A stretch of 46,573 nucleotides of DNA from Prevotellaceae bacterium (GTDB taxonomy: Bacteria; Bacteroidota; Bacteroidia; Bacteroidales; Bacteroidaceae): assembly GCA_022508585.1 (NCBI GenBank), contig JAFLUU010000001.1, positions 1-46,573 on the forward strand, given 5' to 3'. Shown piece after piece: positions 1 through 35,926 of the stretch. Numbering within the stretch: position 1 is the stretch's first letter; each line of letters starts with the position of its first letter. The translations under genes and the position numbers were made by a program. Below the pieces are notes generated by a model. The model was not told the origin of the DNA, did no database searches, and saw only the letters and a list, made by a program, of their open reading frames with translations.

Positions 1-125
1 TTCACGACATTTCTACGCGCGCGGAGGCTCAAAAATCGTGCGCGGAGGCCTTTTCCATAAACTTTAAGGGGGTTAGGTGCACCATTGACGATACTCTGTG
101 TTGTGAGCACGATATTGGGCTATAC
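1..125. repeat. Partial copy (type-1 arm plus tail) of a ~300-bp composite palindromic intergenic repeat family, truncated by the window edge
   Basis: nt 1-80 (ttcacgacatttctacg..gaggctcaaaaatcg..ggaggccttttc..ggttaggtgc) align position for position with 35553-35632. Weaker homology continues to about nt 125. Confidence 0.8.
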
Positions 126-165: not shown

Positions 166-1185
166 CTACGCTGCTCGCCTCATACCAATAAGAATAGGAC
201 AATATCTCTTCAGCACGAGAATAATAGGCACGAAGGCTAATAATGTCAAGATGCTGACGACAAATGTAGAAAAATCAGTGAGTATACTACCCCACTCTTG
301 CTTATAAATTATCTTCAACAGTGCATGATTTATCTCTTGGTGAAAGGTTAGGATGACGATGTTGCCATTGGCAATGAGGATTACGGCTTTGCTCTTAACT
401 TTGTCGAGACGCAAGGAGACTATAAGCAGGAACGATATGCCTGCAACTGCACTTAATGCAAACAGTAGTATGTTATGACCATAGAGGGCACGATATAGGT
501 AAGCAGTATCGTTATAAAAGCTGATAACGTAGGTTATCAGCACCAACACAACAACTATCATAACAGTTTGATAATTACTTAATCTCGTGATTATATTACA
601 AATTTTATTGAAAATATCGCTCGTGCGGCAAACTCCGCCAAACAAGAAGAATGGCATAGCTAAAAACATATTAGTTACGGACCACGCTATGTCTATATGG
701 AGAATATTATAGACTATAGCACCAACAATCGATAATAGTAGCAGAATACAACGCGACTTGCCACTTTGGCCAAACAGATGTACGATAATTTTAACAAGAA
801 TGAGCGTGTAAACAAACCAGAGTTTGTTGCACCCTGCGATGTCGCCGATAGAATGAAAGCCTGTGAGGATTGCCAATGCCGTTGTACCGCCATGAGCGGA
901 GAAGATATGAGGCAACGCTTTGACGGTGGCTAATATTAAATATGGCACTGTCAAGGTTATAAATAGTTTCTTCCAGAAGTGGTCGTCTTTGGTGGCCAAC
1001 TTCATAAGATAGCCCGATATAAAGAAAAACACTGCCACGTTAAATGAATATACAAACGATGTCAGGTGCTCAGGGAAGCAGTGTCCGTAGATTACGAACA
1101 GCATTGCGAGGGCTCTTATCCAGTCTACCCAATTTTTGCGTGTGGTTTGTGATTGCGGTGTTGCATTGTCTGATTGATTGCTCAT
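166..1185 (-). CDS. Acyltransferase family 3 (OafA/NolL-like) integral membrane O-acyltransferase
   Basis: The ORF is polytopic and hydrophobic. Its N-terminal signature WVDWIRALAMLFVIYGHC is typical of acyltransferase-3. I prefer the internal start MSNQSDN (ATG at 1183-1185) over the ORF-track start at 1251. Confidence 0.75.
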   Translation of the reverse strand: MSNQSDNATPQSQTTRKNWVDWIRALAMLFVIYGHCFPEHLTSFVYSFNVAVFFFISGYLMKLATKDDHFWKKLFITLTVPYLILATVKALPHIFSAHGGTTALAILTGFHSIGDIAGCNKLWFVYTLILVKIIVHLFGQSGKSRCILLLLSIVGAIVYNILHIDIAWSVTNMFLAMPFFLFGGVCRTSDIFNKICNIITRLSNYQTVMIVVVLVLITYVISFYNDTAYLYRALYGHNILLFALSAVAGISFLLIVSLRLDKVKSKAVILIANGNIVILTFHQEINHALLKIIYKQEWGSILTDFSTFVVSILTLLAFVPIILVLKRYCPILIGMRRAA

Positions 1186-1406
1186 TGCTTGTTGTGTTAT
1201 AAAGGTTAGTAGCTGCGTAAAGGCGCAGGAAGCACTAACCTTTATGCACAAAGAAAGCGCAGACCTGCCATTTCTCTACCAGGCCTACCACAGCCTCTCT
1301 TACCAAATGGGTATAGTCTACGCCTACGCGTATACCTATTGGTAAGAGAGTTGCTCAAAAAAATCTCGTGCGAGGTGGTAGTTCGGTAGAGAAGCGAACA
1401 ATAAAT

Positions 1407-3781: not shown

Positions 3782-4633
3782 ATGTCAAAAATCAAGTTTA
3801 CGAAAATGCACGGCGCAGGCAATGACTACATCTATGTCGACGCTATGCAATACCCCCTCGCCCACCCCGAGAAGTTAGCCGTTGAGTGGAGCGCGCCTCA
3901 CACGGGCATCGGTAGCGACGGCCTTATTCTAATAGACCGCTCCGAGGTGGCCGACTTCAAGATGCGTATGTTTAACAACGACGGCAGCGAAGGTATCATG
4001 TGCGGCAACGGCGTGAGGTGCGTCGGTAAGTTCGTCTACGACAAGGGGCTGACCTCCTCAAAGAGTGTTACGGTGGAGACGCTCGGCGGTATCAAGGTGC
4101 TGCAACTCACCACCGACAATAATAATAAGGTAACGAAGGTTCGCGTCGACATGGGGCGGCCTTCTTTGCATAACAAGGAGCAGTTAGCCAACGACAGCGG
4201 CTCTATGACCGAAGGTCTCGTGCAAGCCGACGGGCGCGACTACATCGGCACTTTTGTCTGCATGGGTAATCCGCATTTCGTAATCTTTGTTGACGACATC
4301 GAAGCGATAGACCTCACCACAGAGGGGCGTGCGTTAGAGACGCACTCTATCTTCTCCCAGCGATGCAACATAGAGTTCGCCGAAGTGAGGGATAGCGGCG
4401 TTATTCGCACTCGTGTGTGGGAGCGCGGCACCGGTATAACCCTCGCCTGCGGCACCGGAGCCTGCGCCACGGCGGTGGCTGCTATCGTTACGGGCAAAGC
4501 CATCGGGCGTGCAACGATTGCGATGGACGGCGGCGACCTCGAAATCGAATGGGACGGCTCGGAAAACTTGTATATGACCGGTCCTGCCGCCACCGTCTTC
4601 GATGGAGAAATAGAGGATAGCAATACCATATAA
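3782..4633 (+). CDS. dapF: Diaminopimelate epimerase
   Basis: FTKMHGAGNDYIYVD at the N-terminus and both catalytic Cys contexts (MCGNGVRC and ACGTGACA) are present. Confidence 0.92.
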   Translation: MSKIKFTKMHGAGNDYIYVDAMQYPLAHPEKLAVEWSAPHTGIGSDGLILIDRSEVADFKMRMFNNDGSEGIMCGNGVRCVGKFVYDKGLTSSKSVTVETLGGIKVLQLTTDNNNKVTKVRVDMGRPSLHNKEQLANDSGSMTEGLVQADGRDYIGTFVCMGNPHFVIFVDDIEAIDLTTEGRALETHSIFSQRCNIEFAEVRDSGVIRTRVWERGTGITLACGTGACATAVAAIVTGKAIGRATIAMDGGDLEIEWDGSENLYMTGPAATVFDGEIEDSNTI

Positions 4634-5940: not shown

Positions 5941-8130
5941 ATGGCAAGATTAAGATTTAATGTGGTAGAAGCGGCTTTCAAAAAGAAGGCTTTGGAAATA
6001 AAGATGCCTACAGAGCGTCCCTCCGAGTACTTTGCAAAATATGTATTCAACAAGGAAAAGATGTTCCAGTATCTTTCTCCCTCCACCTACGAGCAATTGT
6101 GCGATGTGATCGAGAATGGCACACGCCTCGACCTCTCTGTGGCCGATGAGGTGGCCAAAGGTATGAAGAAATGGGCGCAAGAGTTCGGAGTTACCCACAT
6201 TACCCATTGGTTTCAGCCACTTACTGAAGGTACTGCCGAGAAACACGATGCCTTTGTTGAGCATGGAGACAACGGCGGCATGATTGAGAAATTCAGCGGC
6301 AAGGCTCTCGTACAGCAGGAGCCGGATGCGTCCTCTTTCCCCTCCGGTGGTATACGCTCCACCTTTGAAGCTCGCGGATACAGCGCGTGGGATCCGGCTT
6401 CGCCCGTCTTTGTTGTCGGCGATACGCTCATGATTCCTACCGTGTTCATCTCTTACACCGGCGAGGCTCTCGATTACAAAGCGCCCCTCAAGAAAGCGCT
6501 GGCAGCTGTCGACAAAGCTGCGACTGCCGTTTGTAAATATTTTGATCCGGAGGTTACAAAAGTTACTGCCAATCTTGGTTGGGAACAGGAGTACTTCCTT
6601 GTAGATGAAGACCTCTACGCTGCGCGCCCTGACCTGCTGCTTACAGGCCGCACTCTCACGGGACATGATTCAGCCAAGAATCAGCAAATGGAAGACCACT
6701 ATTTCGGAGCTATTCCCGACCGCGTGGCAGAATTTATGAAGGATCTTGAGATCCAAGCTCTTGAGTTAGGCATTCCGTGCAAGACTTGTCATAACGAAGT
6801 CGCTCCCAATCAGTTTGAGCTCGCCCCTATTTACGAAGAATGCAACTTGGCTGTAGACCACAATATGCTGCTGATGAGCCTTATGCGCAAAGTAGCTCGC
6901 AAGCACGGCTTCCGTTGTCTACTGCATGAGAAGCCCTTTGCCGGAATTAACGGTAGCGGCAAGCACGCCAATTGGTCGCTGGCTACAAACACGGGCGTAG
7001 TACTTCATGCCCCCGGGAAAACTCCGGAAGACAACCTTAGATTTCTCGTTTTTGCAGTGGAAACACTCGTAGGACTGCACAAACATAACGGACTGCTCAA
7101 GGCTTCTATCATGAGCGCGACCAATCAGCATCGTCTTGGGGCGAACGAAGCACCACCGGCAATCATCTCGGCATTTTTGGGCAAGCAAATTTCCGAAGTG
7201 TTCGACAAAATAGAGAATTCCTCTAATGAAGAGCTCATTTCTATCAAGGGTAGTAGCGCTTTGAGCCTTGATATTCCACAAATTCCCGACCTGCGCATAG
7301 ATAATACCGACCGCAACCGCACTTCTCCCTTCGCTTTTACAGGTAACCGCTTCGAATTCCGTGCCGTTGGTTCGCAAGCCAATTGTGCAGAGGCAATGAC
7401 CGTACTTAACACTGCCGTGGCCGAAGCCCTTACCGATTTCAAGACGCGAGTAGACGAACATATAGCCAATGGCGAGGACAAGACGACTGCCATTATCCGT
7501 GTACTGCGCGAAGACATCAAAGCCAGCAAGCCCATTCACTTCGAGGGCAATGGTTACTCCGACGAATGGAAAGCTGAAGCCGAGCGTCGTGGTTTGGACT
7601 GCGAGACTTCCTGTCCGCTCGTTTTCGACCGTTATCTCGACCTCGAGACAATCAAGATGTTCGAGGAGCAGAATGTAATGCGTGAGTTAGAGTTGAAAGC
7701 TCGCAACGAGATCAAATGGGATACTTACACTAAAAAGATACAGATTGAGGCTCGTGTGTTTGGCGACATGGCGATGAACCAGATTATTCCCGTTGCTACA
7801 CGTTATCAGAGTCTTCTGATCGACAATGTTAGCAAGATCGCCGCCACTTTCAGTGCTGAAGAGGCAGAACAACTTAACGCTGACAATCTGAAGATTATCC
7901 GTGAGATTTCGGAGCATACTCGCTTCATCATAGAGAACGTGAACGCCATGGTGGAAGCACGCAAAGTGGCCAATCGTATAGAGTCGGAACGTGAAAAAGC
8001 TATTCAGTATCACGACACAGTGCAACCTTATCTCGATAGTATCCGCTATCATGCGGACAAGCTCGAACTATTAGTAGAGGACGAGCTATGGGTGTTGCCC
8101 AAATACCGCGAACTGCTCTTTATCCGATAA
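5941..8130 (+). CDS. glnN: Glutamine synthetase type III
   Basis: 729 aa, the typical GSIII length. The GSIII N-terminus (PSEYFAKYVFNKEKM) and catalytic core motifs (EVAPNQFELAP, NGSGKHANWS) are present. Confidence 0.92.
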   Translation: MARLRFNVVEAAFKKKALEIKMPTERPSEYFAKYVFNKEKMFQYLSPSTYEQLCDVIENGTRLDLSVADEVAKGMKKWAQEFGVTHITHWFQPLTEGTAEKHDAFVEHGDNGGMIEKFSGKALVQQEPDASSFPSGGIRSTFEARGYSAWDPASPVFVVGDTLMIPTVFISYTGEALDYKAPLKKALAAVDKAATAVCKYFDPEVTKVTANLGWEQEYFLVDEDLYAARPDLLLTGRTLTGHDSAKNQQMEDHYFGAIPDRVAEFMKDLEIQALELGIPCKTCHNEVAPNQFELAPIYEECNLAVDHNMLLMSLMRKVARKHGFRCLLHEKPFAGINGSGKHANWSLATNTGVVLHAPGKTPEDNLRFLVFAVETLVGLHKHNGLLKASIMSATNQHRLGANEAPPAIISAFLGKQISEVFDKIENSSNEELISIKGSSALSLDIPQIPDLRIDNTDRNRTSPFAFTGNRFEFRAVGSQANCAEAMTVLNTAVAEALTDFKTRVDEHIANGEDKTTAIIRVLREDIKASKPIHFEGNGYSDEWKAEAERRGLDCETSCPLVFDRYLDLETIKMFEEQNVMRELELKARNEIKWDTYTKKIQIEARVFGDMAMNQIIPVATRYQSLLIDNVSKIAATFSAEEAEQLNADNLKIIREISEHTRFIIENVNAMVEARKVANRIESEREKAIQYHDTVQPYLDSIRYHADKLELLVEDELWVLPKYRELLFIR

Positions 8131-11464: not shown

Positions 11465-12787
11465 CTATTTAGTCATCTCCTGCTCGATAGCACGAATTTC
11501 CTCTTTGTAATTCGGCGCCGTCTTAATCTTTATATCCACCTGCCGACAGGCGTGTAGCACCGTGGTGTGGTCGCGTCGACCGATGTGCAGCCCTATTTGC
11601 GTGCTGCTCATGTTCGTATGCTTCTGCATCAGATACATGGCAATCTGCCTGGCCTTCACAATGTTAGCCTTGCGCGAGGCAGAGTCCATATCCTTGTGCG
11701 TAATCTTGTAGAACTTGCACGTAGTGCTTACCACCAGTTCCGGAGTAATCACTTTAGCCTTAAAACGCACCAAGCGAGAGACTATACGCTCCGTCATTTC
11801 GAGCGTAATCTCGCTGTCGTTGAGTATAGACTGCACAAGGAGCGAGTTGATCACACCCTCCAGATCGCGCACGTTATCCGTTACATTCGTCGCAATATAG
11901 TCCACCACGTTTTTGGGGATATTCAGCTGATTTTTACGTATCTTAGCTTTCAGAATATTGCGGCGCAACTGTTCATCGGGGCGCAAAATTTCAGCAGTAG
12001 CCCCCATAACGAAACGCGAACTTACCCGCTCCTCAAAACCCTCCAACTTTGAGGGTGCTTTATCGGACGTAAAGATGATTTGCCGCCCGTTGCGCTGCAG
12101 ATGGTTGAAGATGTTGAACAGCGCCTCCTGCGTCTTGGCCTTACCCGAAATCTCATGTATATCATCCACTATCAGACAGTCGATAGACTGGTAGAAATAC
12201 ATAAAGTCATTAAACTTATTCTTCGGTACAGAGTCCGTGTACTGAATAAGGAAGTCGTGCGCCGAGACATAAAGCACTCGCTTCGAAGGATCATTCTCCA
12301 ATATTTTCAGACCAACCGCGTTAACCAAATGAGACTTGCCGACACCGGAGCTTCCGTATAGGAAAAAAGGGTTAAACGCGGTCTGCATCGGCTTAGTCGC
12401 GATAGTCATAGCTATAGAGCGCGCCAATTTGTTAGCATCACCCTTAACGAAGTTATCAAAAGTGTAAGCATCGCTCAGATGCGAATTAAAAATCGGTCTG
12501 GTGGGCTTCACCTCGTTAGCCACAGGCATATTGACAGGCGCTTCCTCCTTGACCCGTATATCCACATCGATAACCCCGAACACTTTGTCGACTTCCGCCT
12601 GCAGCATTTGGCCAAAATGCTCGGCCAAGTACTCGTAGAAGAAATTATTAGGCACCTGTAGGAACACTTTGTCCTCCTCCACTCCGAGAAAGACGATATG
12701 CTCAAACCATGTAGCGAACGTGTCTTGAGAAATCCGGGGGCGGATAGCCTCAAGCACCTCAGTCCATTTGTCTTGGTTCGCAATCAT
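11465..12787 (-). CDS. dnaA: Chromosomal replication initiator protein DnaA
   Basis: The AAA+ Walker A (GSSGVGKSHL), Walker B (LIVDDIH) and C-terminal DNA-binding domain (ARQIAMYL, IGRRDHTTVLHA) are all present. Confidence 0.95.
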   Translation of the reverse strand: MIANQDKWTEVLEAIRPRISQDTFATWFEHIVFLGVEEDKVFLQVPNNFFYEYLAEHFGQMLQAEVDKVFGVIDVDIRVKEEAPVNMPVANEVKPTRPIFNSHLSDAYTFDNFVKGDANKLARSIAMTIATKPMQTAFNPFFLYGSSGVGKSHLVNAVGLKILENDPSKRVLYVSAHDFLIQYTDSVPKNKFNDFMYFYQSIDCLIVDDIHEISGKAKTQEALFNIFNHLQRNGRQIIFTSDKAPSKLEGFEERVSSRFVMGATAEILRPDEQLRRNILKAKIRKNQLNIPKNVVDYIATNVTDNVRDLEGVINSLLVQSILNDSEITLEMTERIVSRLVRFKAKVITPELVVSTTCKFYKITHKDMDSASRKANIVKARQIAMYLMQKHTNMSSTQIGLHIGRRDHTTVLHACRQVDIKIKTAPNYKEEIRAIEQEMTK

Positions 12788-12822
12788 GGTATTTATATCA
12801 TCGTTGCACTATAAACGGACTG

Positions 12823-12830
12823 CAAATTTA
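12823..12830 (-). promoter_or_regulatory. -7 promoter box (TAAATTTG on the minus strand) for dnaA
   Basis: TAnnTTTG match, 36 nt upstream of the dnaA ATG. Confidence 0.5.
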
Positions 12831-12945
12831 ATGTAAATTAAGCAAAATACAGTACCACGAGGGCACTTTTTATCAGATTTGCACAACAGAGACGTGAAGA
12901 AAGCCTATAACGTTATTTATAAATAATCTCTATATAAACAACTTT

Positions 12946-15900
12946 CTAAGACATTGGCTTTATCATTGATTCAATAAAGTTTATTTCTTCTTCAGTTAAA
13001 TTGTATTTCCGATATAGTTGCTTATCTATTTCTGCCACACTCTTGCTCCAATCTATATCCGACTTTGCCGTAAAGTCTTGAATTGGAACAAAAGCAAAAC
13101 TATCTCTTGAGATTTGTTGTGTAATGACTTTTAATGATAGTAGATAACGTAAGAATTTTGTACATAAATATTTTGCAGCATTATCTACAATAATTTTATC
13201 CGCGGAATGGTAGACGAGAAGATAAGTCTCCGAGCAAATAACATTGGGTTCTAAAACTTTAACCTTAGGAAGAACCTTTCGTTTTCCGTCTTTATCTGCA
13301 CGACCAGCCGATTCACTTGCTCTTGAACAAATAACTTTCCATTCATCCACGACATTACTATTTACAACAACATCTGCGCGGTCAACATACGACACGCCTT
13401 GACGTCCATACAAGGCAACAGACGACGAATTACTATTCTCGTAGCCAACATAATTTGTCGGGAATCCAAAAGGTTTCCTACTAAATACAATAGAAGATAA
13501 TGTCTCTTCTTCTTTACTCGACACTTTTTGCAGTAAATCTATAGCAGCAGTACTTCTTACAAATACAGAATGTTCGTTTAGTTTTCTATAAGACACCTTT
13601 CGCTCTCCTGCTGTTATATTTTCAAAGCGGCACTCTCCGTGATAATCATGTTCGTGAAGAAAGTAGCATATTCCTCCTGCTATATTGACTGTCGGAAAAA
13701 TATCTCTGGAGTCAGTATAGTCAAACAAAGTTTTTATGCGGTCATCATTCAGCATGTCCTCTCTAAAAGCATCGAGCCCCTTACCTCCAGCGTACCACCT
13801 TGCTGGCATAATCATCGACATATAGTTAGGTATAAGCCTCTTTGCCATATCAACAAACAAGTTATAAACAGGAATTGCGCTCGCTTGTGCTCCTCCGTCC
13901 ATTTCTTGATACGGCGGATTACCTACTATCGCTTTTATTCTCATATCTTTTCCTACAAGATTGCTAACTTTCTTTATAAAAAGTTCCGGCTGGTTTTTAA
14001 TTTTGTTGATTAAGTCATCGGGAGCCCACATATTGGTCTTGCCTTTGCGGAAGCCAAACAGTGTGCGGCGCGTGATAGTTTTTGCCATAGGCGTTTTGCA
14101 TATCACAAAAATGTTATCTGCTATTACTGCGTCCCAAATAGCCTGATGCTCAGCGAGAGTGCGAGGCGAGGAAACATTATCGCGCAGACGCGAACGATAG
14201 ACATTATATGCCAAATACAGCGGATAAAGTCCTGATTTGCTGTTAATCTCAAGCAAACACGCGTCGGGACGGAACACATCGGCGGTAACATTGTCGCGCT
14301 CCACGAAGCGCGGCTCTTCTATAGTGTCGGAGAAGTCCTCATTGAAGAAAGTGTAGCCTCCAAGGCAGTCGCTCATATGCATATTGACCACGCGCCACGG
14401 TGTAAGCACCGTTTCCTTATCAGGATTGCGGAAAGTGCTGAAAATATCAGCGATGCGCCCGATGCGTTCCTCCACCGTTAGGTTGTCTGCCGCGCGAGCC
14501 ATTTGTCTGATGCGCTTAGCCGCAGCAGTAAAAATGTCGGGATCGTAATATTTCTTGAAATCATTGAAATGTTCCTTGCTCACACCGCGCGGCATAAACT
14601 CTTCCCATGATGTGTCGTCGACAAGCGCGGTGAAATTATCTATCGTCAGCTCCCTGTCCTCGTCCACGATGTTTGCACCATATATAAGCAGGGGCATACG
14701 GATGCTGATGCCGCGCAGTATGGAGATAGCATCGTCTCTTAGCTTGCGCCGCTTTGCCAATTCCTCGCGGCGAGCACGCTCTTCGTCGCTAAGCTCGCTT
14801 TTCTTTTTCTTGTTAAGCCTCTCCATCTCGGCATACTCCTCATTAGTCAGCCCCTGCTCGTTGACAGCAATCTTATTCGACTTAGCAATCGCTTTGGTCT
14901 TGCCGATAATGCCCTTGAGGTTGTTAAACTCCTTGAGTTCAAGTGCAGAGAGCTTCATCAGCTCGTCGTTATATAGGTAGCCGTCCTCAAAACCATTGCG
15001 CACCACTCTCTCCACATACACGCGCTTAAGCTGTTGGAGCATCTGCTCCGTGTCATACTGCTTCATTCGGCTGCCCTCAATGCCGATGACGGGGCAGAAG
15101 TTGAGAAACTCTCTCAGTAGCCTGCGGTCATCGTCCGTCTGCTTGCCGGCCTTGCGCGACACCTTGGCCGTCTCGGCTAATACGCGCAGCGTGCGGTCGG
15201 GGGCGAAGTCAAAGACATAGCAATCCTCCTTGACGCGCCCACAGATGGTGGCAGGCGTCTGCACACGGAAGATGGTCTGCATATAACTCGCGGCAGCAGT
15301 GTTGTAATTGCCCGACAGCATCAGCACGCCCGTCCATGCCGGCACACTGACACCCGTAGTCAGCCTGCCGCACGACAGCGTGATGGTCTCGGTGGCCGAC
15401 GGGTCAGCAGTGATTGCCTGTTGCACTTTTTCGAGAGCGTTATTATAACGCCGGGTATCGTCGTCTTCTTTTACCCCCATGTCGCCGGCCACATTCACTA
15501 TCTTCACGCCGCGTGCTCCGAAGCAGTCGTGGTCTAAGAGCATCTGCTCGAGGGCGGCAGCCTCCTTCACGCCCGGCACTATCCACAGCGTGTGGCGAAA
15601 GATATTGCGGTAGCGCTCGTTGGCAAAGGGATACATGCTGTGCTCATCGGTCTTGGTCAGCAAGTTAAGGAAGCTCTGAATATATCGCTTATGCACAAAC
15701 TCGCCGCTATCGTCGACACGAAAGAACTCCTTGAAGTTGAAAGCCAGTTCTTCATCGGCAAACTCGTTAAGCAGACGCCCGAGGTCATAGGTATAGATGT
15801 GCATCGTGGGCAGCGCGGCGTAGGGGTTGTGGTCGCCCGGGTGGTCGATGTCCCATTGCGCCTTGGCGCGCTGCTCCATCACATAGTCCCATGTGTAAAT

Positions 15901-16914
15901 CTCGTCCTCGCTGTAGTCATTGAGCAGATTAAAGGGCGTACCCGAGAGGTTGAGCACCTTGGTAGTCTCCTTCACAAGCTCATTCAGCACACTCTTTCCT
16001 AATTCGGTCTGAGTGCCTTCGTGAGCCTCGTCCACGATTATCAAATCCCACTCCGCCGAGAACAGTTCATCGTTCTTGTCGAAGTGGCCGCCCACCAACT
16101 CCGAGCCGCGCAAGTCCTGCATCGACGCAAAGTAGACATAGCCGCCCTCTCCCTTCCTCGAGCGGCTCTCAAGCGACTGAAAGCTCTCGCTTTTACTCTT
16201 AGAGCCGTACATAAATGTGGCATCGTCATAAAAAATCTTGCCGAAATCTTCAAACCACCCCTCGTCCACCACCGGACGGTGCGTCAGTATGAGCACACGC
16301 TGCATAGGCTGATGCTTCTTGCCGTCAGCCACAGTCTGATTCCACTCCTTCACCACCTGCAAGGCCGACAGCGTCTTGCCGAAGCGCATCTTGGCGTTCC
16401 AGAGCATCTTGTTGCTGCGCCGAAAGTGCTTGAGCGTGCTGCCGATAGCCTCTCTTTGCTCCGCACGAAACACTATAGGCGACCTACGCGTGCCGACCTG
16501 CCCTGCATTGAGCGCAGCCCTGCCTGCCTTGGCGGCAGCAATTGCCTGTTTGGCTGTCTCAAGGTCGCACACATACCACTCGTTGGCACCGTCCACATGG
16601 GGAAACTTCTTTTTCTTCACACCCGAGCGGTCAAGCACCTCATGCACTTTATGATCATTGATGCCGCAGAGCCTGCCGCCCTTAGAGAATATCGCCACCT
16701 CGGTGTGCAGCAGCTCATAGGCGATGCCGGCTGTCTTAGTGTACTGGTCGATGCGCCGGCGCGCCGTCCTGTTGAGTACAACGCTGTTAGGCGGCAGATT
16801 GATGTCGCCGTCCTCGAAAGTAGCCTCGCCAATCTTTACACAATCACGGTGCGCCGCGTCATTGATGCGGAACACATAAATCAATTTGGCCTTAAGGTCA
16901 GAAAAATACTCCAT
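12946..16914 (-). CDS. 1322-aa fusion protein with a T5orf172/GIY-YIG-like nuclease domain, an SF2 (ResIII/SNF2-like) helicase, a charged coiled-coil coupler, a gamma-class N6-adenine DNA methyltransferase (Eco57I/TaqI-like) and a target-recognition domain. It is a Type ISP-like restriction-modification or defence enzyme.
   Basis: aa 8-125: LIYVF..VKIGEAT..RRRI..HEVL..NEWY (T5orf172/GIY-YIG pattern). Helicase motif I is AKMRFGKT (16372-16395), motif II is IIVDEAH (around 16021-16035), motif III is LSGTP, and motif VI is QTIFRVQT. aa 690-730 form a Lys/Arg/Glu-rich coiled coil. MTase motif X is ETVLTPWRVVN (around 14383-14403), motif I-like is LLEINSKSGLYP (14221-14256), and motif IV is NPPY (13909-13920). 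The C-terminal TRD ends LYRKYNLTEEEINFIESMIKPM. Confidence 0.8.
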   Translation of the reverse strand: MEYFSDLKAKLIYVFRINDAAHRDCVKIGEATFEDGDINLPPNSVVLNRTARRRIDQYTKTAGIAYELLHTEVAIFSKGGRLCGINDHKVHEVLDRSGVKKKKFPHVDGANEWYVCDLETAKQAIAAAKAGRAALNAGQVGTRRSPIVFRAEQREAIGSTLKHFRRSNKMLWNAKMRFGKTLSALQVVKEWNQTVADGKKHQPMQRVLILTHRPVVDEGWFEDFGKIFYDDATFMYGSKSKSESFQSLESRSRKGEGGYVYFASMQDLRGSELVGGHFDKNDELFSAEWDLIIVDEAHEGTQTELGKSVLNELVKETTKVLNLSGTPFNLLNDYSEDEIYTWDYVMEQRAKAQWDIDHPGDHNPYAALPTMHIYTYDLGRLLNEFADEELAFNFKEFFRVDDSGEFVHKRYIQSFLNLLTKTDEHSMYPFANERYRNIFRHTLWIVPGVKEAAALEQMLLDHDCFGARGVKIVNVAGDMGVKEDDDTRRYNNALEKVQQAITADPSATETITLSCGRLTTGVSVPAWTGVLMLSGNYNTAAASYMQTIFRVQTPATICGRVKEDCYVFDFAPDRTLRVLAETAKVSRKAGKQTDDDRRLLREFLNFCPVIGIEGSRMKQYDTEQMLQQLKRVYVERVVRNGFEDGYLYNDELMKLSALELKEFNNLKGIIGKTKAIAKSNKIAVNEQGLTNEEYAEMERLNKKKKSELSDEERARREELAKRRKLRDDAISILRGISIRMPLLIYGANIVDEDRELTIDNFTALVDDTSWEEFMPRGVSKEHFNDFKKYYDPDIFTAAAKRIRQMARAADNLTVEERIGRIADIFSTFRNPDKETVLTPWRVVNMHMSDCLGGYTFFNEDFSDTIEEPRFVERDNVTADVFRPDACLLEINSKSGLYPLYLAYNVYRSRLRDNVSSPRTLAEHQAIWDAVIADNIFVICKTPMAKTITRRTLFGFRKGKTNMWAPDDLINKIKNQPELFIKKVSNLVGKDMRIKAIVGNPPYQEMDGGAQASAIPVYNLFVDMAKRLIPNYMSMIMPARWYAGGKGLDAFREDMLNDDRIKTLFDYTDSRDIFPTVNIAGGICYFLHEHDYHGECRFENITAGERKVSYRKLNEHSVFVRSTAAIDLLQKVSSKEEETLSSIVFSRKPFGFPTNYVGYENSNSSSVALYGRQGVSYVDRADVVVNSNVVDEWKVICSRASESAGRADKDGKRKVLPKVKVLEPNVICSETYLLVYHSADKIIVDNAAKYLCTKFLRYLLSLKVITQQISRDSFAFVPIQDFTAKSDIDWSKSVAEIDKQLYRKYNLTEEEINFIESMIKPMS

Positions 16915-16918
16915 ATCG

Positions 16919-17935
16919 CTATCCTTTAATCAAGTCCACAAATCTTATTTTCTGCTTCTCCCCTTTTGCGCTCCAGTCCTTCACGAGCGCATAAGTGCCA
17001 TTGTGGGCGCGCAGCTCGTCAGTCCTGCACCCTTGGCAGTGCTCGATGCGCTCCACCGTCCCGAATAATTCCTCCTCCACCTCCCTGCGTTCGCCGCAAG
17101 AGTCGGGGACGACACATTTCAAACCGTCCATCTGCCAGATGTTCCAAGAGATGATGTAAGCAATGTATTTTACGGACTTCAGCAGCGGCTCCCTTTCAAA
17201 CTTAGCCTTATAATAGTCCGTAAAAGTATGTAACAAGTTCATACGCGCCAGCAGCAGGTTGTCGCCCTGCCAGTCATAGCCGTAGATGCTCTGATAAGCC
17301 GACTGCGCCGCCTTAAGCCATTCGGCGGAAGTCTCGCAGTTTTCGCTAACCACCCTCAGCTTGCGGTCAAGCAAGCCGATGCGTTCCTCTATGGGGATAA
17401 ACCTGCCGGTAGTAGCGTCATAGCGGCTCACAAGGTAGGGAGCTTCGCCGCAAGTAATCTCAAGGCGGTTTTCATTGACATAGCTGCGCCAAGTTTTACC
17501 CTCGGGAAAGTTCACTGGCTCCTTGTTTACTGTCCAAGAGTGGCTGCCGTCGGGAGCATCTACCTCGACATTAAACACACCCTCGCGGCCGAACCACGCA
17601 GAGTCCACCAAGTTGTTCTGCGCATTGCAAATCCACGACGGAGTGAACACCTCCGCCATCTCCTTAGCCCTCGCCTGCTGACTCAAGCGCGACTTGAGCA
17701 CGCGGGGGAGCACCACATCGCTCCGACTGCCGCTCACAAGATGCGACATAATCTCGTCGGCGTAGCCATAGCCTTCGCCAAGCTCCTCATAGTCGTGAGT
17801 AGCCCAAAAGATGTTGCGGCCGGTAGTATGATCGCGGAGCAATATGTCTAATAGCTCCGGCGCATAGTCAGCCAAATCGTTCTCCCTGATGTCTACACCA
17901 AGGTTGTTGCCACTTATAGCATTTGCTTTTGGCAT
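16919..17935 (-). CDS. 338-aa partner protein. It resembles the N-terminal half of a gamma-class N6-adenine methyltransferase (motif X, I and II/III-like), lacks an NPPY-type motif, and has a C-terminal 4-Cys putative zinc-binding cluster.
   Basis: The MTase-like motifs are AEVFTPSWICN (motif X-like), LEITCGEAPYL (compare M.TaqI EPACAHGPFL) and IYGYDWQGDNLLLARMNLL (HsdM/Eco57I motif II-III-like). I found no (N/D)PP(Y/F/W). The Cys cluster is C274-x5-C280...C300-x2-C303. The stop lies 4 nt before the start of the 1322-aa ORF. Confidence 0.65.
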   Translation of the reverse strand: MPKANAISGNNLGVDIRENDLADYAPELLDILLRDHTTGRNIFWATHDYEELGEGYGYADEIMSHLVSGSRSDVVLPRVLKSRLSQQARAKEMAEVFTPSWICNAQNNLVDSAWFGREGVFNVEVDAPDGSHSWTVNKEPVNFPEGKTWRSYVNENRLEITCGEAPYLVSRYDATTGRFIPIEERIGLLDRKLRVVSENCETSAEWLKAAQSAYQSIYGYDWQGDNLLLARMNLLHTFTDYYKAKFEREPLLKSVKYIAYIISWNIWQMDGLKCVVPDSCGERREVEEELFGTVERIEHCQGCRTDELRAHNGTYALVKDWSAKGEKQKIRFVDLIKG

Positions 17936-18218
17936 AATCTATATTTTGGCAAAAGCACTTATCGGGAGTACAGACTCTTAACACAACTTTATAGATACGA
18001 AAAAGCGCGGACGCTTATCCGTACCTGAGGTTGTGAGAAAAGACCTGCCATAAATGATAAGTAATAATCCACGCTATAATGCGCAGACACTATACACTTA
18101 TTCAAATTTAGGCTCTTATGAAACTTCTCACATTTCAGGTACGCCGAATAACTGCTAATGCTGTTAGTATTCCAGTAAAGGGCTGTAGTCTCATCGCGAT
18201 GAGCGTAACAACTCACAG

Positions 18219-18226
18219 CAAAAGTA
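18219..18226 (-). promoter_or_regulatory. Candidate -7 box (TACTTTTG on the minus strand) upstream of the two-gene RM-like operon
   Basis: This is the only TAnnTTTG match I found between 17936 and 18360. It would give a leader of about 280 nt, so the assignment is tentative. Confidence 0.3.
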
Positions 18227-18354
18227 GTAACTTTTTGGGATAAAGCATCTATTTAACTCTAAAAATCGCCACTAAACCACCTCGCCACCACAACAAATTA
18301 GAATATTTTTTGCCCTATGCGTGCGTACATTATTATAAATACTCTATATATTGT

Positions 18355-18652
18355 TTGAAATACCGTGCGAACTCATAGAAATGTCGTGCGCGCCCGATTT
18401 TAGCGCCTCCGCGCGCGTAGAAATGTCGGGAAAGTTCAAAAATTCCTATAAGAATTTCTAAAAAATCTTATAAGAATTCTCGGAAATTTATATAAGAATT
18501 TTTGAAAATTCTTATATGATTTTTTCAAAATCAACGAGCAAAAAACAAATGCGCAGGCTCAAAAATCAGACGCCGAGGCCTTTTCTATGAAGTTTGAGGG
18601 GGTTAAGTGCAGCAAGGACGAGGTTTTATGTAATTTTGAGGGGATAAGGTAC
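18355..18652. repeat. Full copy B of the composite palindromic intergenic repeat (arm, four-palindrome core at 18441-18522, arm)
   Basis: The core is about 93% identical by eye to the cores at 26253-26334 and 35463-35544. The left arm is the reverse complement of the type-1 arm (gtagaaatgtcgggaa, 18417-18432). The right arm is type-2 (aacgagcaaaaaacaaatgcgcagg..ggttaagtgc). Confidence 0.85.
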
Positions 18653-18674
18653 GGCTTTGGCGATATTGTAAAAC

Positions 18675-18710
18675 AAAAAGAGAGGAAAACTAAGTTTTTC
18701 CTCTCTTTTT
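18675..18710 (-). terminator. Hairpin immediately downstream of tRNA-Asp
   Basis: aaagagaggaaaac and gtttttcctctcttt form a ~14-bp stem flanked by A/T runs, 2 nt from the tRNA 3' end. Confidence 0.6.
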
Positions 18711-18712
18711 GT

Positions 18713-18789
18713 TGGCGGTGCGTACGGGACTCGAACCCGTGACCCCCTGCGTGACAGGCAGATATTCTAACCAACTGAACTAACGCACC
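18713..18789 (-). tRNA. tRNA-Asp (anticodon GTC), CCA encoded
   Basis: The reverse complement is GGTGCGTTAGTTCAGTTGGTTAGAATATCTGCCTGTCACGCAGGGGGTCACGGGTTCGAGTCCCGTACGCACCGCCA. It folds by hand into a cloverleaf with a 7-bp acceptor stem, anticodon loop CTGTCAC and T-loop TTCGAGT. Confidence 0.93.
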
Positions 18790-26125: not shown

Positions 26126-26424
26126 CGAAACATCGTTCTATCAGTTCGCAAAGTCGTGCATTCTGTGTAAAACATCGTCAAAACTTCTCCTAATGTCGTG
26201 CGGACTCACAGAAAAGGTCTCCGGACTTGTAGAAATGTCGTGAAAATTCAAAAAATATTATAAGAATTTCTAAAAAATCATATAAGAATTCCCGAGAATT
26301 TATATAAGAATTTTTGAAAATTCTTATATGATTTTTTCAAATTCCACGAGCAAAAAACAAATGCGCAGGCTCAAAAATCAGATGCCGAGGCCTTTTCTGT
26401 GAGTCCGCACGACTTTTCTCACAC
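26126..26424. repeat. Full copy C of the composite palindromic intergenic repeat (core 26253-26334)
   Basis: It has the same architecture as copy B. Six ~21-bp units lie to the left (TCGT at 26133, 26154, 26175, 26196 and 26238). The core holds four palindromes, and a type-2 arm lies to the right. The outer inverted repeat pairs gtgcggactcacagaaaagg with ccttttctgtgagtccgcac. Confidence 0.85.
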
Positions 26425-34134: not shown

Positions 34135-34199
34135 ACGCAAGCCGAGCAAAGAGCAAAATTTATTTGAATTTTTCAGAAGCGTATTCTTCCCTTTATTCG

Positions 34200-34207
34200 T
34201 ACTTTTG
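34200..34207 (+). promoter_or_regulatory. -7 promoter box TACTTTTG
   Basis: TAnnTTTG match, 55 nt upstream of the ATG at 34262. Confidence 0.5.
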
Positions 34208-34261
34208 CATAACATATTAGTCGCAACAATAAATTACTAAACCCACTCAAATTTTTCGCCT

Positions 34262-35317
34262 ATGGTTAACTCTTCTATCTCGCGCGTCATCTCGCGGCTC
34301 CGTTTCCCCTTAATGGTGGGCGTAGTATTCATCCACTCCAAAAGTATCTTCATCAAACCGGAGATGCCCTTGCTATCAAACATCGCAACATTCTTCTCCT
34401 CCATACTGCCATCGTTCTGCGTGCCACTATTCTTCACATTCTCCGGCTATCTATTCTTCGCCAGCACACCAAACCTCACTCCCAGCGACTATGGCCGCAA
34501 GCTAAAGAAACGATTTCGCACCCTTGCCGTGCCTTACCTCTTCTGGAACTCCTTGACAATAGCCGCCCTTTGGATAACTGGCCGCCTCGTGCCATCAATA
34601 GCCAACCCTGTGTTTGAAACGGCATCATCTACCCTCTCCCCAGAATTGTTAAAATGCTTTTATTGCCTATCCGACGGATTTCCTATCGCCTATCAGTTTT
34701 GGTTTGTGCGCGACCTTATGATAGCTATCGTCTTCTCCCCTATCGTATACCTCATTGTTAAGAAGACACCAATCGGGATAATATGCCTAACGATTAGCTA
34801 CTTTATCCTACCGCACATGACAGCGTGGTATTTCTTCTCATTAGGAGCATATTTCGCAGTGCAACAGAGAGATTTCATCGCTTTATCAAACAAATTATTC
34901 AAATACGCCGTCATTATCGGGACACTCTCGCTCATTACGCTGATAGCGATTGGCAATATATTTAAAGCCGCGGAGTTTTACATTATCAGCTCGATGATTG
35001 TGGTGGTAGCAGTTGCCGCCAAATGCATCGGCACTCACAGCAAATACAACCATTTCTTCTCCAAATATTGCAGAACCGCTTGGCAATATACAGGAGGTCG
35101 TTACGACCCCTCATTTTTCTTATTCTGTTACCACACGCTGCCGCTCATGGTAATAAAAAAGATAAGCAGTTCGTTCTTGGCAGACAAAAGCGAATGGTTC
35201 TGGATTGTCGATTACTTCTTCAACCCGATTATCGTCACAATCATAGGCGTTGTATTGTACAAGTATCTCTACAAATACGCGCCACGCCTGCTCTCTTTCG
35301 TTACAGGAGGGCGATAA
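34262..35317 (+). CDS. Acyltransferase family 3 integral membrane protein
   Basis: The ORF is polytopic. The N-terminus (RLRFPLMVGVVFIHS) and FFTFSGYLFF are typical of acyltransferase-3. It is a diverged paralogue class of the gene at 166-1185. Confidence 0.75.
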   Translation: MVNSSISRVISRLRFPLMVGVVFIHSKSIFIKPEMPLLSNIATFFSSILPSFCVPLFFTFSGYLFFASTPNLTPSDYGRKLKKRFRTLAVPYLFWNSLTIAALWITGRLVPSIANPVFETASSTLSPELLKCFYCLSDGFPIAYQFWFVRDLMIAIVFSPIVYLIVKKTPIGIICLTISYFILPHMTAWYFFSLGAYFAVQQRDFIALSNKLFKYAVIIGTLSLITLIAIGNIFKAAEFYIISSMIVVVAVAAKCIGTHSKYNHFFSKYCRTAWQYTGGRYDPSFFLFCYHTLPLMVIKKISSSFLADKSEWFWIVDYFFNPIIVTIIGVVLYKYLYKYAPRLLSFVTGGR

Positions 35318-35340: not shown

Positions 35341-35653
35341 AGTCCTCAAAACAGAGCTAAATCGCGCCGAAATTTTACCTAACCCCCTCAAAGTTTGAAA
35401 AAACATCGTGCGCATCTGATTTTTGAGCCTCCGCGTTTGTTTTTTCATCGTGAAACTTAAAAAATTCTTATAAGAATTTCTAAAAAACCTTATAAGAATT
35501 TCCGGGAATTTATATAAGAATTTTTGAAAATTCTTATAAGATTTTTTCATTCTTCACGACATTTCTACGAATTTCGAGGCTCAAAAATCGTACGTGGAGG
35601 CCTTTTCTGCGAACTTTGACGAGGTTAGGTGCAGTTTTGAGAATATAAGGTGC
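35341..35653. repeat. Full copy D of the composite palindromic intergenic repeat (core 35463-35544), with arms swapped relative to copies B and C
   Basis: The core is in the same plus orientation as in B and C. The left arm is the reverse complement of type-2 (35428-35454) and the right arm is type-1 (35553-35632). The terminal inverted repeats are cctaaccccctcaaagtt and aactttgacgaggttagg. Confidence 0.85.
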
Positions 35654-35875
35654 GACCATGACGATATTTAGTGCTGTGAATACGGCAATTTATTATAGTC
35701 TTAATGATTGCTATCAATCTCTTGTAGACATTGATAGCCGCATTGATAAACATCGAGCAAAGCGCGGTGTTTCAATAAGACTGCGCTCTCGCCATATTTA
35801 CATGATAGTCCGCGTTACCAGCGATACGTTTGCCGATATGGCTCATGAAGGCTTTGCCTTTGTTATTTTTTTTCG

Positions 35876-35883
35876 TACTTTTG
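35876..35883 (+). promoter_or_regulatory. -7 promoter box TACTTTTG
   Basis: TAnnTTTG match, 59 nt upstream of the ATG at 35942. Confidence 0.5.
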
Positions 35884-35926
35884 CAGTTTGAAATACACCT
35901 TATTTATAATAACGACAATATTTTAA

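What the first reader, a model, noticed from the sequence alone, without database searches (positions are those of the whole stretch)
35463..35544. Core of every full copy holds four TTCTTATAAGAA-like palindromes spaced exactly 22 bp centre to centre
**Palindrome centres:**
- Copy B: 18448/49, 18470/71, 18492/93 and 18514/15.
- Copy C: 26260/61, 26282/83, 26304/05 and 26326/27.
- Copy D: 35470/71, 35492/93, 35514/15 and 35536/37.

**Pattern:** All spacings are exactly 22 bp, about two helical turns, so the sites lie on one face of the DNA. The best site, AATTCTTATAAGAATT, is a perfect 16-bp palindrome. The other sites are one- or two-mismatch variants (cctataagaat, tatataagaat, ttcttatatga). 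The spacers are A- or T-tracts.

**Inference:** This is the signature of a cooperative binding array for a dimeric DNA-binding protein, as in an operator, iteron or centromere-like array. It is not the signature of a passive hairpin repeat. No gene for an obvious cognate regulator lies beside any copy.
Basis: seen in the sequence. Interest (0 to 1): 0.7.

Follow-up and report, generated by a model that had tools for sequence, protein, structure and literature searches.

The report
Phased palindromes inside a dispersed repeat
The four evenly spaced palindromes are real, but they are the conserved centre of a roughly 280-bp non-coding, mirror-symmetric repeat scattered between the genes of an uncultured Prevotella-like gut bacterium; that makes this a new family of a familiar kind of bacterial repeat, not a gene-specific operator.

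Summary
**Observation: confirmed.** Every copy carries four TTCTTATAAGAA-like palindromes exactly 22 bp apart.

**What it is**
- The array is the centre of a 260-300 bp intergenic repeat that is itself a large imperfect palindrome.
- The arms are built from 21-bp modules in mirror order, so the whole element is a phased array of about 12 modules.
- I found 6 full copies in about 73 kb of this genome. Contigs break at them.
- Two copies of a diverged subfamily, and other arm-derived pseudo-ORFs, turned up in related metagenome assemblies.

- In the diverged subfamily the 22-bp phasing is kept without indels.
- The 16-bp sites are 84% conserved against 42% for the spacers.
- One site position changed from A to T in all four sites.
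- The core varies far less than the arms.
- The invariant consensus is AATTCnTATAnGAATT.

**Against it**
- No promoter, regulator, rep or par gene accompanies any copy.
- The motif never occurs outside the repeat.
- Exact phasing follows trivially from tandem 22-bp units.

**Other tests**
- No strand bias supports an RNA hairpin.
- I found no homologue in Rfam, plasmids, phages or GTDB representative genomes.

**Verdict.** This is a new family of BIME-, MITE- or BrickBuilt-like mosaic repeat. Its core is plausibly, but not demonstrably, a protein-binding array.

The parts
35375..35653 (.). Copy D of the dispersed mosaic palindromic repeat (whole element, outer limits approximate)
   Evidence: - Inverted-repeat arms I8 and I9.
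- Folds as one long hairpin, z = -6.5.
- Module map.
- nhmmer hit at 35397-35612, E = 2e-62.
35463..35544 (.). Core of copy D: four 22-bp units
   Evidence: - Tandem Repeats Finder: period 22, 3.9 copies, 0% indels.
- Lag-22 self-match of 0.73.
35463..35478 (.). Site 1 of copy D, AATTCTTATAAGAATT, a perfect palindrome
35485..35500 (+). Site 2 of copy D, AAACCTTATAAGAATT. The right half-site is intact and the left half-site is degenerate.
35507..35522 (+). Site 3 of copy D, AATTTATATAAGAATT. The right half-site is intact. The site is identical in the six copies A-F and differs at one position (A to T) in copies G and H.
35529..35544 (-). Site 4 of copy D, AATTCTTATAAGATTT. The left half-site is intact, so TATAAGAATT reads on the - strand.
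35375..35462 (.). Left arm of copy D. It holds 21-bp modules: the reverse complement of TTTGAGGGGGTTAGGTGC, an AAAnnTCGTG module, and GATTTTTGAGCCTCC.
   Evidence: - Module map.
- Lag-21 self-match of 0.45.
35545..35653 (.). Right arm of copy D, the mirror of the left arm. It holds CACGACATTT, GAGGCTCAAAAATC, GGAGGCCTTTTC and two TTTGAnnnnnTAAGGTGC modules.
   Evidence: - Module map.
- Lag-21 self-match of 0.44.
18358..18652 (.). Copy B. Its core is at 18441-18522. It lies between an ORF next to a restriction-modification gene and tRNA-Asp.
26149..26417 (.). Copy C. Its core is at 26253-26334. It lies between the FGE-sulfatase and rubrerythrin genes. Its outer arms differ from those of copies A, B and D.
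   Evidence: (I15).
1..93 (.). Right arm of copy A, cut by the start of the contig. The full copy is at L122:6042-6299.
   Evidence: (D2).

Best explanation
**What it is (shown).** The 82-bp array is the conserved core of a lineage-specific family of non-coding, interspersed, mirror-symmetric mosaic repeats. Each repeat is about 260-300 bp and built from about 12 modules of 21-22 bp. The host is an uncultured Prevotellaceae/Bacteroidaceae bacterium. The copies sit only between genes, about one per 12 kb in the DNA sampled.

**How it arose (inferred).** The copies spread from a master copy that already had four 22-bp units. That origin is why the phasing is exact.

**How the core probably works (inferred, about 45%).**
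- The core sites AATTCnTATAnGAATT have half-sites one helical turn apart, and successive sites are two turns apart.
- They are probably recognition sites on double-stranded DNA for a dimeric, cooperatively binding protein acting in trans.
- The likeliest candidates are the protein that propagates or maintains the element (a transposase, recombinase or domesticated derivative) or a nucleoid-associated protein.
- A regulator of the neighbouring genes is less likely.
- The 21-bp arm modules would be further phased sites.
For: **It is a dispersed repeat**
- Three full copies and one cut copy lie in the window. The cut copy is complete in L122. Two more copies lie in another contig of the same sample.
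- That is 6 copies in about 73 kb.
- The window and several other contigs end inside copies.
- All copies are intergenic among housekeeping genes.

**It is a palindromic mosaic**
- 71.8% of cells pair across the dyad, against 35-47% when the pairing is slid.
- The single-strand fold has z = -6.5.
- The arms show 21-bp periodicity and the core 22-bp periodicity.

**The core is constrained**
- Within copies A-F, 12/88 core columns vary against 86/132 arm columns.
- Between subfamilies, sites are 54/64 identical against 10/24 for spacers (p = 2.5e-4), with no indel across the 88-bp core.
- Site position 9 changed from A to T in all four sites of the diverged subfamily. Four of five double changes across the dyad keep complementarity.
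- Further diverged copies, known only from pseudo-ORFs, keep the reading frame from site 3 through site 4 into the arm.

**It is not a one-strand RNA structure.** G-T mismatches (52) do not exceed A-C mismatches (70).
Against: **Evidence that is missing**
- No binding protein, transposase or RAYT gene was found in the roughly 95 kb available.
- No sharp terminal inverted repeats or target-site duplications were found. The outer limits fade into variable numbers of modules.
- There is no empty-site or presence/absence evidence. All same-species contigs are 100% identical to the window.

**Weak points in the evidence for constraint**
- Conservation rests on 8 DNA copies from only two subfamilies.
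- The arm alignment is blurred by module shifts.
- Concerted change could come from homogenisation among the tandem units instead of co-evolution with a protein.
- The core could be conserved because it drives cruciform or hairpin formation, not protein recognition.
Confidence: 0.55

Rival explanations
1. This is a passive minisatellite trapped inside a MITE, as in BrickBuilt of Porphyromonas gingivalis. The 22-bp units arose by slippage of a self-complementary unit. They have no binding function, and the phasing and palindromes are by-products.
For: - The layout is the same: a central tandem array of 22-23 bp flanked by non-identical arms, intergenic and multi-copy.
- A tandem array of a self-complementary unit automatically has dyad axes every 11 bp. 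Alternative hairpin registers are indeed predicted.
- 21-23 bp tandem arrays are common in intergenic DNA of Bacteroidales.
Against: - Unit number is fixed at four in all 8 copies, including the diverged subfamily. BrickBuilt ranges from 1 to 22.8 units.
- The core is the least variable part, and sites are more conserved than spacers. Neutral minisatellites should show the opposite.
Confidence: 0.2
2. The array is a host cis-regulatory or maintenance site (operator, iteron origin or centromere-like array) that acts on neighbouring genes or on replicon maintenance.
For: - The sites are phased and dimer-like, on one face of the helix, and conserved.
- A 22-bp period is classical for iterons (own knowledge: R6K, RK2).
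Against: - Copies lie next to unrelated housekeeping genes, in a mixture of orientations relative to them.
- No TAnnTTTG promoter motif lies in the core or inner arms. The ABC-F promoter-like motif lies about 220 bp beyond the end of the element.
- No rep, par or regulator gene lies beside copies A-D, whose neighbours were scanned.
- The motif never occurs alone outside the repeat.
- There are no plasmid or phage matches.
Confidence: 0.1
3. The element acts as a single-stranded DNA or RNA hairpin. It could be a REP/REPIN-type substrate of an HUH (RAYT or IS200-like) transposase, or a 3'-UTR stabiliser or terminator. On this view the palindromes matter as stems and not as duplex binding sites.
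For: - The fold is a long hairpin with z = -6.5, and core-only folds have z = -3.3 to -4.8.
- Every copy lies 60-125 bp downstream of a gene or tRNA gene on at least one side.
- Four of five double changes keep pairing.
- GTAG precedes some arm modules, as in GTAG-tagged REPs.
Against: - There is no excess of G-T over A-C mismatches (52 against 70), so no single strand is favoured.
- Covariation does not exceed shuffled controls.
- The best fold register differs between copies.
- The units are AT-rich perfect palindromes without loops or tags, unlike REPs.
- No terminator-like site was detected in the element.
- Rfam gives only sub-threshold matches to plant miRNA hairpins.
Confidence: 0.15

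Closest known systems
BrickBuilt MITE of Porphyromonas gingivalis (Klein et al. 2015, PMC4596501)
   Same: - The host is also in Bacteroidales.
- Both are exclusively intergenic and multi-copy.
- Both have a central tandem array of about 22-23 bp units flanked by leader and tail segments.
- Both are restricted to one lineage.
   Different: - BrickBuilt has a variable unit number (1 to 22.8), non-palindromic leader and tail, IS5-like terminal repeats (GAGACCTTTGCA) and promoter activity.
- Here there are always four units, the units are palindromes, and the arms mirror each other and are themselves 21-bp modular.
- A GAGGCCTTTTC motif exists here, but it is internal and points outward.
- No promoter motif was found here.
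BIMEs and REPINs of Proteobacteria, and NIMEs (dRS3) of Neisseria: bacterial interspersed mosaic elements
   Same: - Both are mosaics of several short motif types in a fixed order.
- Both have palindromes nested in a larger inverted arrangement.
- Both are high-copy and intergenic.
- These known families are bound by host proteins (IHF, gyrase) or a dedicated RAYT transposase (own knowledge).
   Different: - REP units are 20-40 bp stem-loops with a GTAG or CGTC tag.
- Here the units are AT-rich 16-18 bp perfect palindromes without loop or tag.
- No RAYT gene was seen, and the strict 21-22 bp phasing has no counterpart in those families.
Iteron arrays of theta-replicating plasmids (for example R6K gamma ori, seven 22-bp iterons) and the multi-site ends of Tn7 and Mu (22-bp transposase sites)
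   Same: Several copies of a roughly 22-bp unit lie on one face of the helix and are bound cooperatively by one protein (own knowledge).
   Different: - Those arrays occur once per replicon or at the ends of a transposon, next to the gene for their binding protein.
- Here the array is central, dispersed in many chromosomal copies, and has no such gene nearby.

Membership tests
MITE (non-autonomous IS derivative) | Short, non-coding, multi-copy, intergenic | tested here: met
   - 6 copies in about 73 kb.
- Stop codons in all frames.
- All copies are intergenic.
MITE (non-autonomous IS derivative) | Defined terminal inverted repeats with flanking target-site duplication | tested here: inconclusive
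   The whole element is an inverted repeat. The outermost modules (GCACCTAACCCCCTCAAAGTT) vary in number, so no sharp ends or duplications can be read.
MITE (non-autonomous IS derivative) | Parent IS or transposase with matching ends; empty sites in relatives | not testable with these tools
   - No transposase lies in the available contigs.
- Relatives with 94% ABC-F identity lack the element in about 20 kb, but their intergenic DNA cannot be aligned.
BrickBuilt-type MITE with an internal minisatellite | Variable number of tandem units between copies | tested here: not met
   All 8 copies have exactly four units, in a gap-free alignment. BrickBuilt has 1 to 22.8 units.
BrickBuilt-type MITE with an internal minisatellite | IS5-like terminal repeats GAGACCTTTGCA ... 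TGCAAAGGTCTC at the outer ends | tested here: not met
   GGAGGCCTTTTC and GAAAAGGTCTCC occur, but inside the arms, with the GAG end facing the core.
REP / BIME / REPIN | 20-40 bp stem-loop units with an unpaired GTAG or CGTC tag | tested here: not met
   The core units are loop-less AT-rich palindromes without a tag. GTAG precedes only some arm modules.
REP / BIME / REPIN | Associated single-copy RAYT gene flanked by the repeats | not testable with these tools
   Only about 95 kb of the genome could be read, and it holds no Y1/HUH transposase.
Plasmid iteron origin | Array next to a rep gene, one locus per replicon | tested here: not met
   - No rep gene lies beside the copies whose neighbours were scanned.
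- There are many chromosomal copies.
- There are no plasmid matches.
Operator array of a local regulator | Overlaps or adjoins a promoter; regulator gene nearby; site also found at other regulated genes | tested here: not met
   - No TAnnTTTG motif lies in the core or inner arms.
- The flanking genes are unrelated housekeeping genes.
- The motif is absent outside the repeat.
Rfam RNA families | Score at or above the family's gathering threshold | tested here: not met
   - Only tRNA-Asp passes in the window.
- The element gives 59 bits against a threshold of 249 for a plant miRNA hairpin model.

The most novel reading that the evidence does not exclude
The core is a genome-wide set of hundreds of phased, four-site binding arrays for one dedicated dimeric DNA-binding protein, either a domesticated transposase or a nucleoid-organising factor. 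That protein co-evolves with its sites, as suggested by the concerted A-to-T switch at the same site position in a sister subfamily. This would be a REPIN-RAYT-like or NAP-site partnership of a kind not yet described in Bacteroidales.
Probability: 0.2. Interest if true: 0.6.

Novelty: new member of a known kind. Interest (0 to 1): 0.35.

Why it matters
**Practical value**
- Interspersed repeats of this density (about one per 12 kb) fragment short-read assemblies of gut and rumen Bacteroidales. They also mark rearrangement-prone sites, so knowing the family helps MAG finishing and strain typing.

**Biological value**
- The element has a fixed four-site core that is better conserved than its arms, and a strict two-helical-turn module period.
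- That makes it a clean candidate for finding the protein that recognises such repeats in Bacteroidales. No REP/RAYT-like system is characterised there.

**Limit**
- As it stands this is a well-described new repeat family, not a new mechanism.

Tried and rejected
**Searches that found nothing related**
- The exact 26-mer core found nothing in GTDB representative genomes. The MAGs of this lineage end before the core, which may explain it.
- The same 26-mer in JGI metagenomes gave one chance hit, in a mitochondrial cox2-cox3 spacer.
- A scan of genomes for three TATAAGAA motifs with variable gaps gave 118 unrelated tandem repeats. None had homologous arms.
- A scan of viral contigs gave chance AT-rich hits with a flat gap distribution.
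- A pseudo-ORF spanning the core found nothing.
- An nhmmer profile of the 8 copies, run on all 1.9 Mb fetched, found only the known copies.
- Plasmids, phages and Rfam gave nothing.

**Look-ups that failed**
- Four look-ups failed because the gene call or partial protein was not on record.

**Ideas tested and rejected**
- Inverton: the core orientation relative to the asymmetric arms is the same in all 8 copies.
- Gene-cassette model: copies A and D both lie 3' of Acyl_transf_3 genes, but the two proteins share only 29% identity over 110 residues and lie on opposite sides of the element.
- Link to oriC: dnaA is in the window, but the copy density is the same on an unrelated contig.
- Noc-like or parS-like sites: the resemblances are not conserved between copies.

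**What did work**
- Translating the arms and searching protein databases for spurious ORFs found further copies.

Full report
**Observation**

The sequence is as described.
- TTCTTATAAGAA with up to 2 mismatches occurs 13 times in the window, against 2.2 expected and in 0 of 100 shuffles.
- Twelve of the 13 form three groups of four, with starts exactly 22 bp apart. The starts are 18443/65/87/509, 26255/77/99/321 and 35465/87/509/531.
- Tandem Repeats Finder reports period 22, about 4 copies and 0% indels.
- AATTCTTATAAGAATT at 35463-35478 is a perfect palindrome.
- The strictly invariant part is the half-site TATAAGAATT. It lies on the + strand in sites 1-3 and on the - strand in site 4.

**Context: the array is the centre of a larger repeat**

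- The three arrays are the centres of a longer repeat (family D1). A fourth copy is cut by the window start.
- Each copy aligns with its own reverse complement.
- As a single strand it folds into one long hairpin, z = -6.5.
- In a gap-free 220-column alignment of eight copies, 71.8% of cells pair across the central dyad. The figure is 35-47% when the partner is slid by 1-3 columns.
- The arms are modular. They hold AAATGTCGTG, GGAGGCTCAAAAATC, GGAGGCCTTTTC and TTTGAGGGGGTTAGGTGC units in mirror order on the two sides, with variable numbers of the outermost unit.
- Self-similarity peaks at lag 21 in both arms (0.44-0.45, against about 0.2-0.3 at other lags) and at lag 22 in the core (0.73).
- The element is therefore a mirror-symmetric, phased array of about 12 modules. 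The four palindromes are its middle.

**Source and copy number**

- The window is a whole metagenome contig. An overlapping 71.8-kb ENA contig and several Logan contigs are 100% identical to it.
- Both long contigs start or end inside a copy.
- The genes are those of a Bacteroidota chromosome: PorU-like C25 peptidase, PorV, dnaA, glnS, dapF and others.
- The closest named proteins are from MAGs labelled Bacteroidaceae or Prevotellaceae.
- Copy A is complete in L122 and has the same core.
- The element has stop codons in all frames, but its right-arm frame is open for about 45 codons. I searched protein databases for spurious ORFs translated from it.
  - This returned P0121-P0127, four of them 'partial' hypothetical proteins at contig ends of an NCBI Prevotellaceae MAG.
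  - A search of cluster representatives later returned P0132-P0142.
- Look-ups of these gave two more full copies, E and F, on another contig of the same sample. They also gave two copies, G and H, of a diverged subfamily from two other samples.
- That makes six full copies in about 73 kb, all intergenic.

**No homologues elsewhere**

- Nothing related was found in Rfam, plasmids or phages, viral contigs or GTDB representative genomes by exact core pattern.
- About 20-kb loci of the nearest species, with 94% ABC-F identity, also lack it.

**Is the core constrained?**

- Within copies A-F, 12 of 88 core columns vary, against 86 of 132 arm columns.
- Between subfamilies the 88-bp core aligns without any indel, so the 22-bp phasing is preserved.
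- The 16-bp sites are 54/64 identical, against 10/24 for the spacers (Fisher p = 2.5e-4). With 12-bp sites the contrast is weaker (p = 0.058).
- The invariant consensus is AATTCnTATAnGAATT.
- Site position 9 is T instead of A in all four sites of G and H. Position 4 changes in three of the four sites: T to A in sites 1 and 2, and T to G in site 4.
- Four of five double substitutions across the dyad keep complementarity. By my rough estimate, four parallel changes at one position are very unlikely under independent drift. This points to concerted evolution, either homogenisation of the units or co-evolution with a recognising factor.
- Pseudo-ORFs from further diverged copies (NFQKF[IV]YDF...) keep the frame from site 3 through site 4 into the arm. 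Here too there is no indel.

**Tests of the rival readings**

*RNA hairpin*
- G-T mismatches (52) do not exceed A-C mismatches (70), so no single strand is favoured.
- Covariation does not exceed shuffled controls.
- The best fold register shifts by one unit between copies.
- No terminator-like site is called in the element.

*Promoter or operator*
- The Bacteroidetes -7 motif TAnnTTTG is absent from the core and inner arms.
- The promoter-like motif of ABC-F lies at 35873-35885, beyond the element.
- The neighbouring genes are unrelated.
- The motif does not occur outside the repeat.

*Iteron or centromere*
- No rep or par gene lies near copies A-D, whose neighbours were scanned.
- There are many chromosomal copies.

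*Inverton*
- The core orientation relative to the asymmetric arms is constant in all eight copies.

*Classical MITE*
- No sharp terminal repeats or target duplications can be read, because the ends are variable module arrays.
- No transposase lies in the DNA available.

*BrickBuilt (PMC4596501)*
- The layout is similar. However, BrickBuilt has 1-22.8 units, non-mirrored flanks and IS5-type terminal repeats.

*REP*
- The units here lack the stem-loop-plus-tag structure that defines GTAG and CGTC REPs.

**Conclusion**

- The array is not an independent regulatory site. It is the conserved heart of a new family of interspersed mosaic palindromic repeats in Bacteroidales.
- Exact phasing is explained by tandem 22-bp units in the master copy.
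- Three things are the evidence that the sites are recognised by something: retention of the phasing, the better conservation of sites than spacers, and the concerted site change. I take the recogniser to be, most probably, a dimeric protein on duplex DNA. That step is inference, at about 45%.
- The remaining probability is divided among a neutral minisatellite, a cruciform or single-stranded-DNA substrate, and an RNA role.

Noticed in passing
window 1-93 and 35569; L002 end; L226 start: - The window is a complete 46,573-bp contig that begins inside copy A.
- The overlapping ENA contig ends inside copy D.
- A Logan contig ends inside copy C.
- The repeat therefore systematically breaks short-read assemblies.
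   Followed up: yes
window 166-1251 (-) and 34262-35317 (+): - Copies A and D each lie 60-90 bp downstream of an Acyl_transf_3 gene.
- The two proteins are only distantly related: 29% identity over 110 residues.
- The nearest species lack both the acyltransferase and the element between the FAA-hydrolase and ABC-F genes.
   Followed up: partly
window 34197-34209 and 35873-35885: The identical 13-mer TCGTACTTTTGCA contains a Bacteroidetes-type -7 motif (TAnnTTTG). It lies about 55 bp upstream of both the acyltransferase gene and the ABC-F gene, so the inserted segment is bracketed by the same promoter-like sequence.
   Followed up: no
window 11465-18789: dnaA is followed by a 1322-aa Eco57I-like/ResIII type IIG restriction-modification gene and a 338-aa ORF with no Pfam match. 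Copy B and tRNA-Asp come next. This looks like an accessory island between dnaA and a tRNA gene.
   Followed up: no
L226 (strain at about 95% nucleotide identity) against the window and L122: - In this related strain the FMN_red/NUDIX block lies, inverted, about 2.6 kb downstream of the P-type ATPase gene. In the window's genome that block abuts copy A.
- One synteny breakpoint therefore coincides with copy A.
- L226 also begins with an arm-like module, AACTTTGATAAGGTGTAAGCAG, about 80 bp upstream of ABC-F.
   Followed up: partly
L081:1916-2000, L094:~4430-4530, L084:5442-5540 (Parabacteroides): - These loci hold unrelated four-unit, 22-bp-period arrays, GACACYTATAAGAAGTGTC.
- In L081 the arrangement is also three direct units plus one inverted.
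- In L081 and L094 the array lies 60-70 bp upstream of an HU-HIG/DUF4469 histone-like DNA-binding gene.
- Nine of the ten hits with exactly a 22-bp period in the truncated genome scan are from Bacteroidales.
   Followed up: partly
L032:2640-2725 (Prevotella sp. MAG): Four (T)CTTATAAGAA palindromes lie exactly 22 bp apart in the divergent clpP-purT intergenic region, with spacers unrelated to those in the window. This could be a distant relative of the core or a coincidence of the search pattern.
   Followed up: partly
L012:~600-700 and L067:~7355-7450 (Bacteroidales MAGs): These loci hold mirror-arranged arrays with an 11-bp period. About three GTTCTTATATA units are followed by about five TATATAAGAAS units.
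   Followed up: no
L227:10359-10434: Copy E, like copy B, lies next to the 3' end of a tRNA gene. For copy E it is tRNA-Pro and for copy B tRNA-Asp.
   Followed up: no
window 35364-35644: The element gives sub-threshold Rfam matches to plant miRNA precursor models: MIR821 at 59 bits against a gathering score of 249. This reflects only its long AT-rich hairpin shape.
   Followed up: yes
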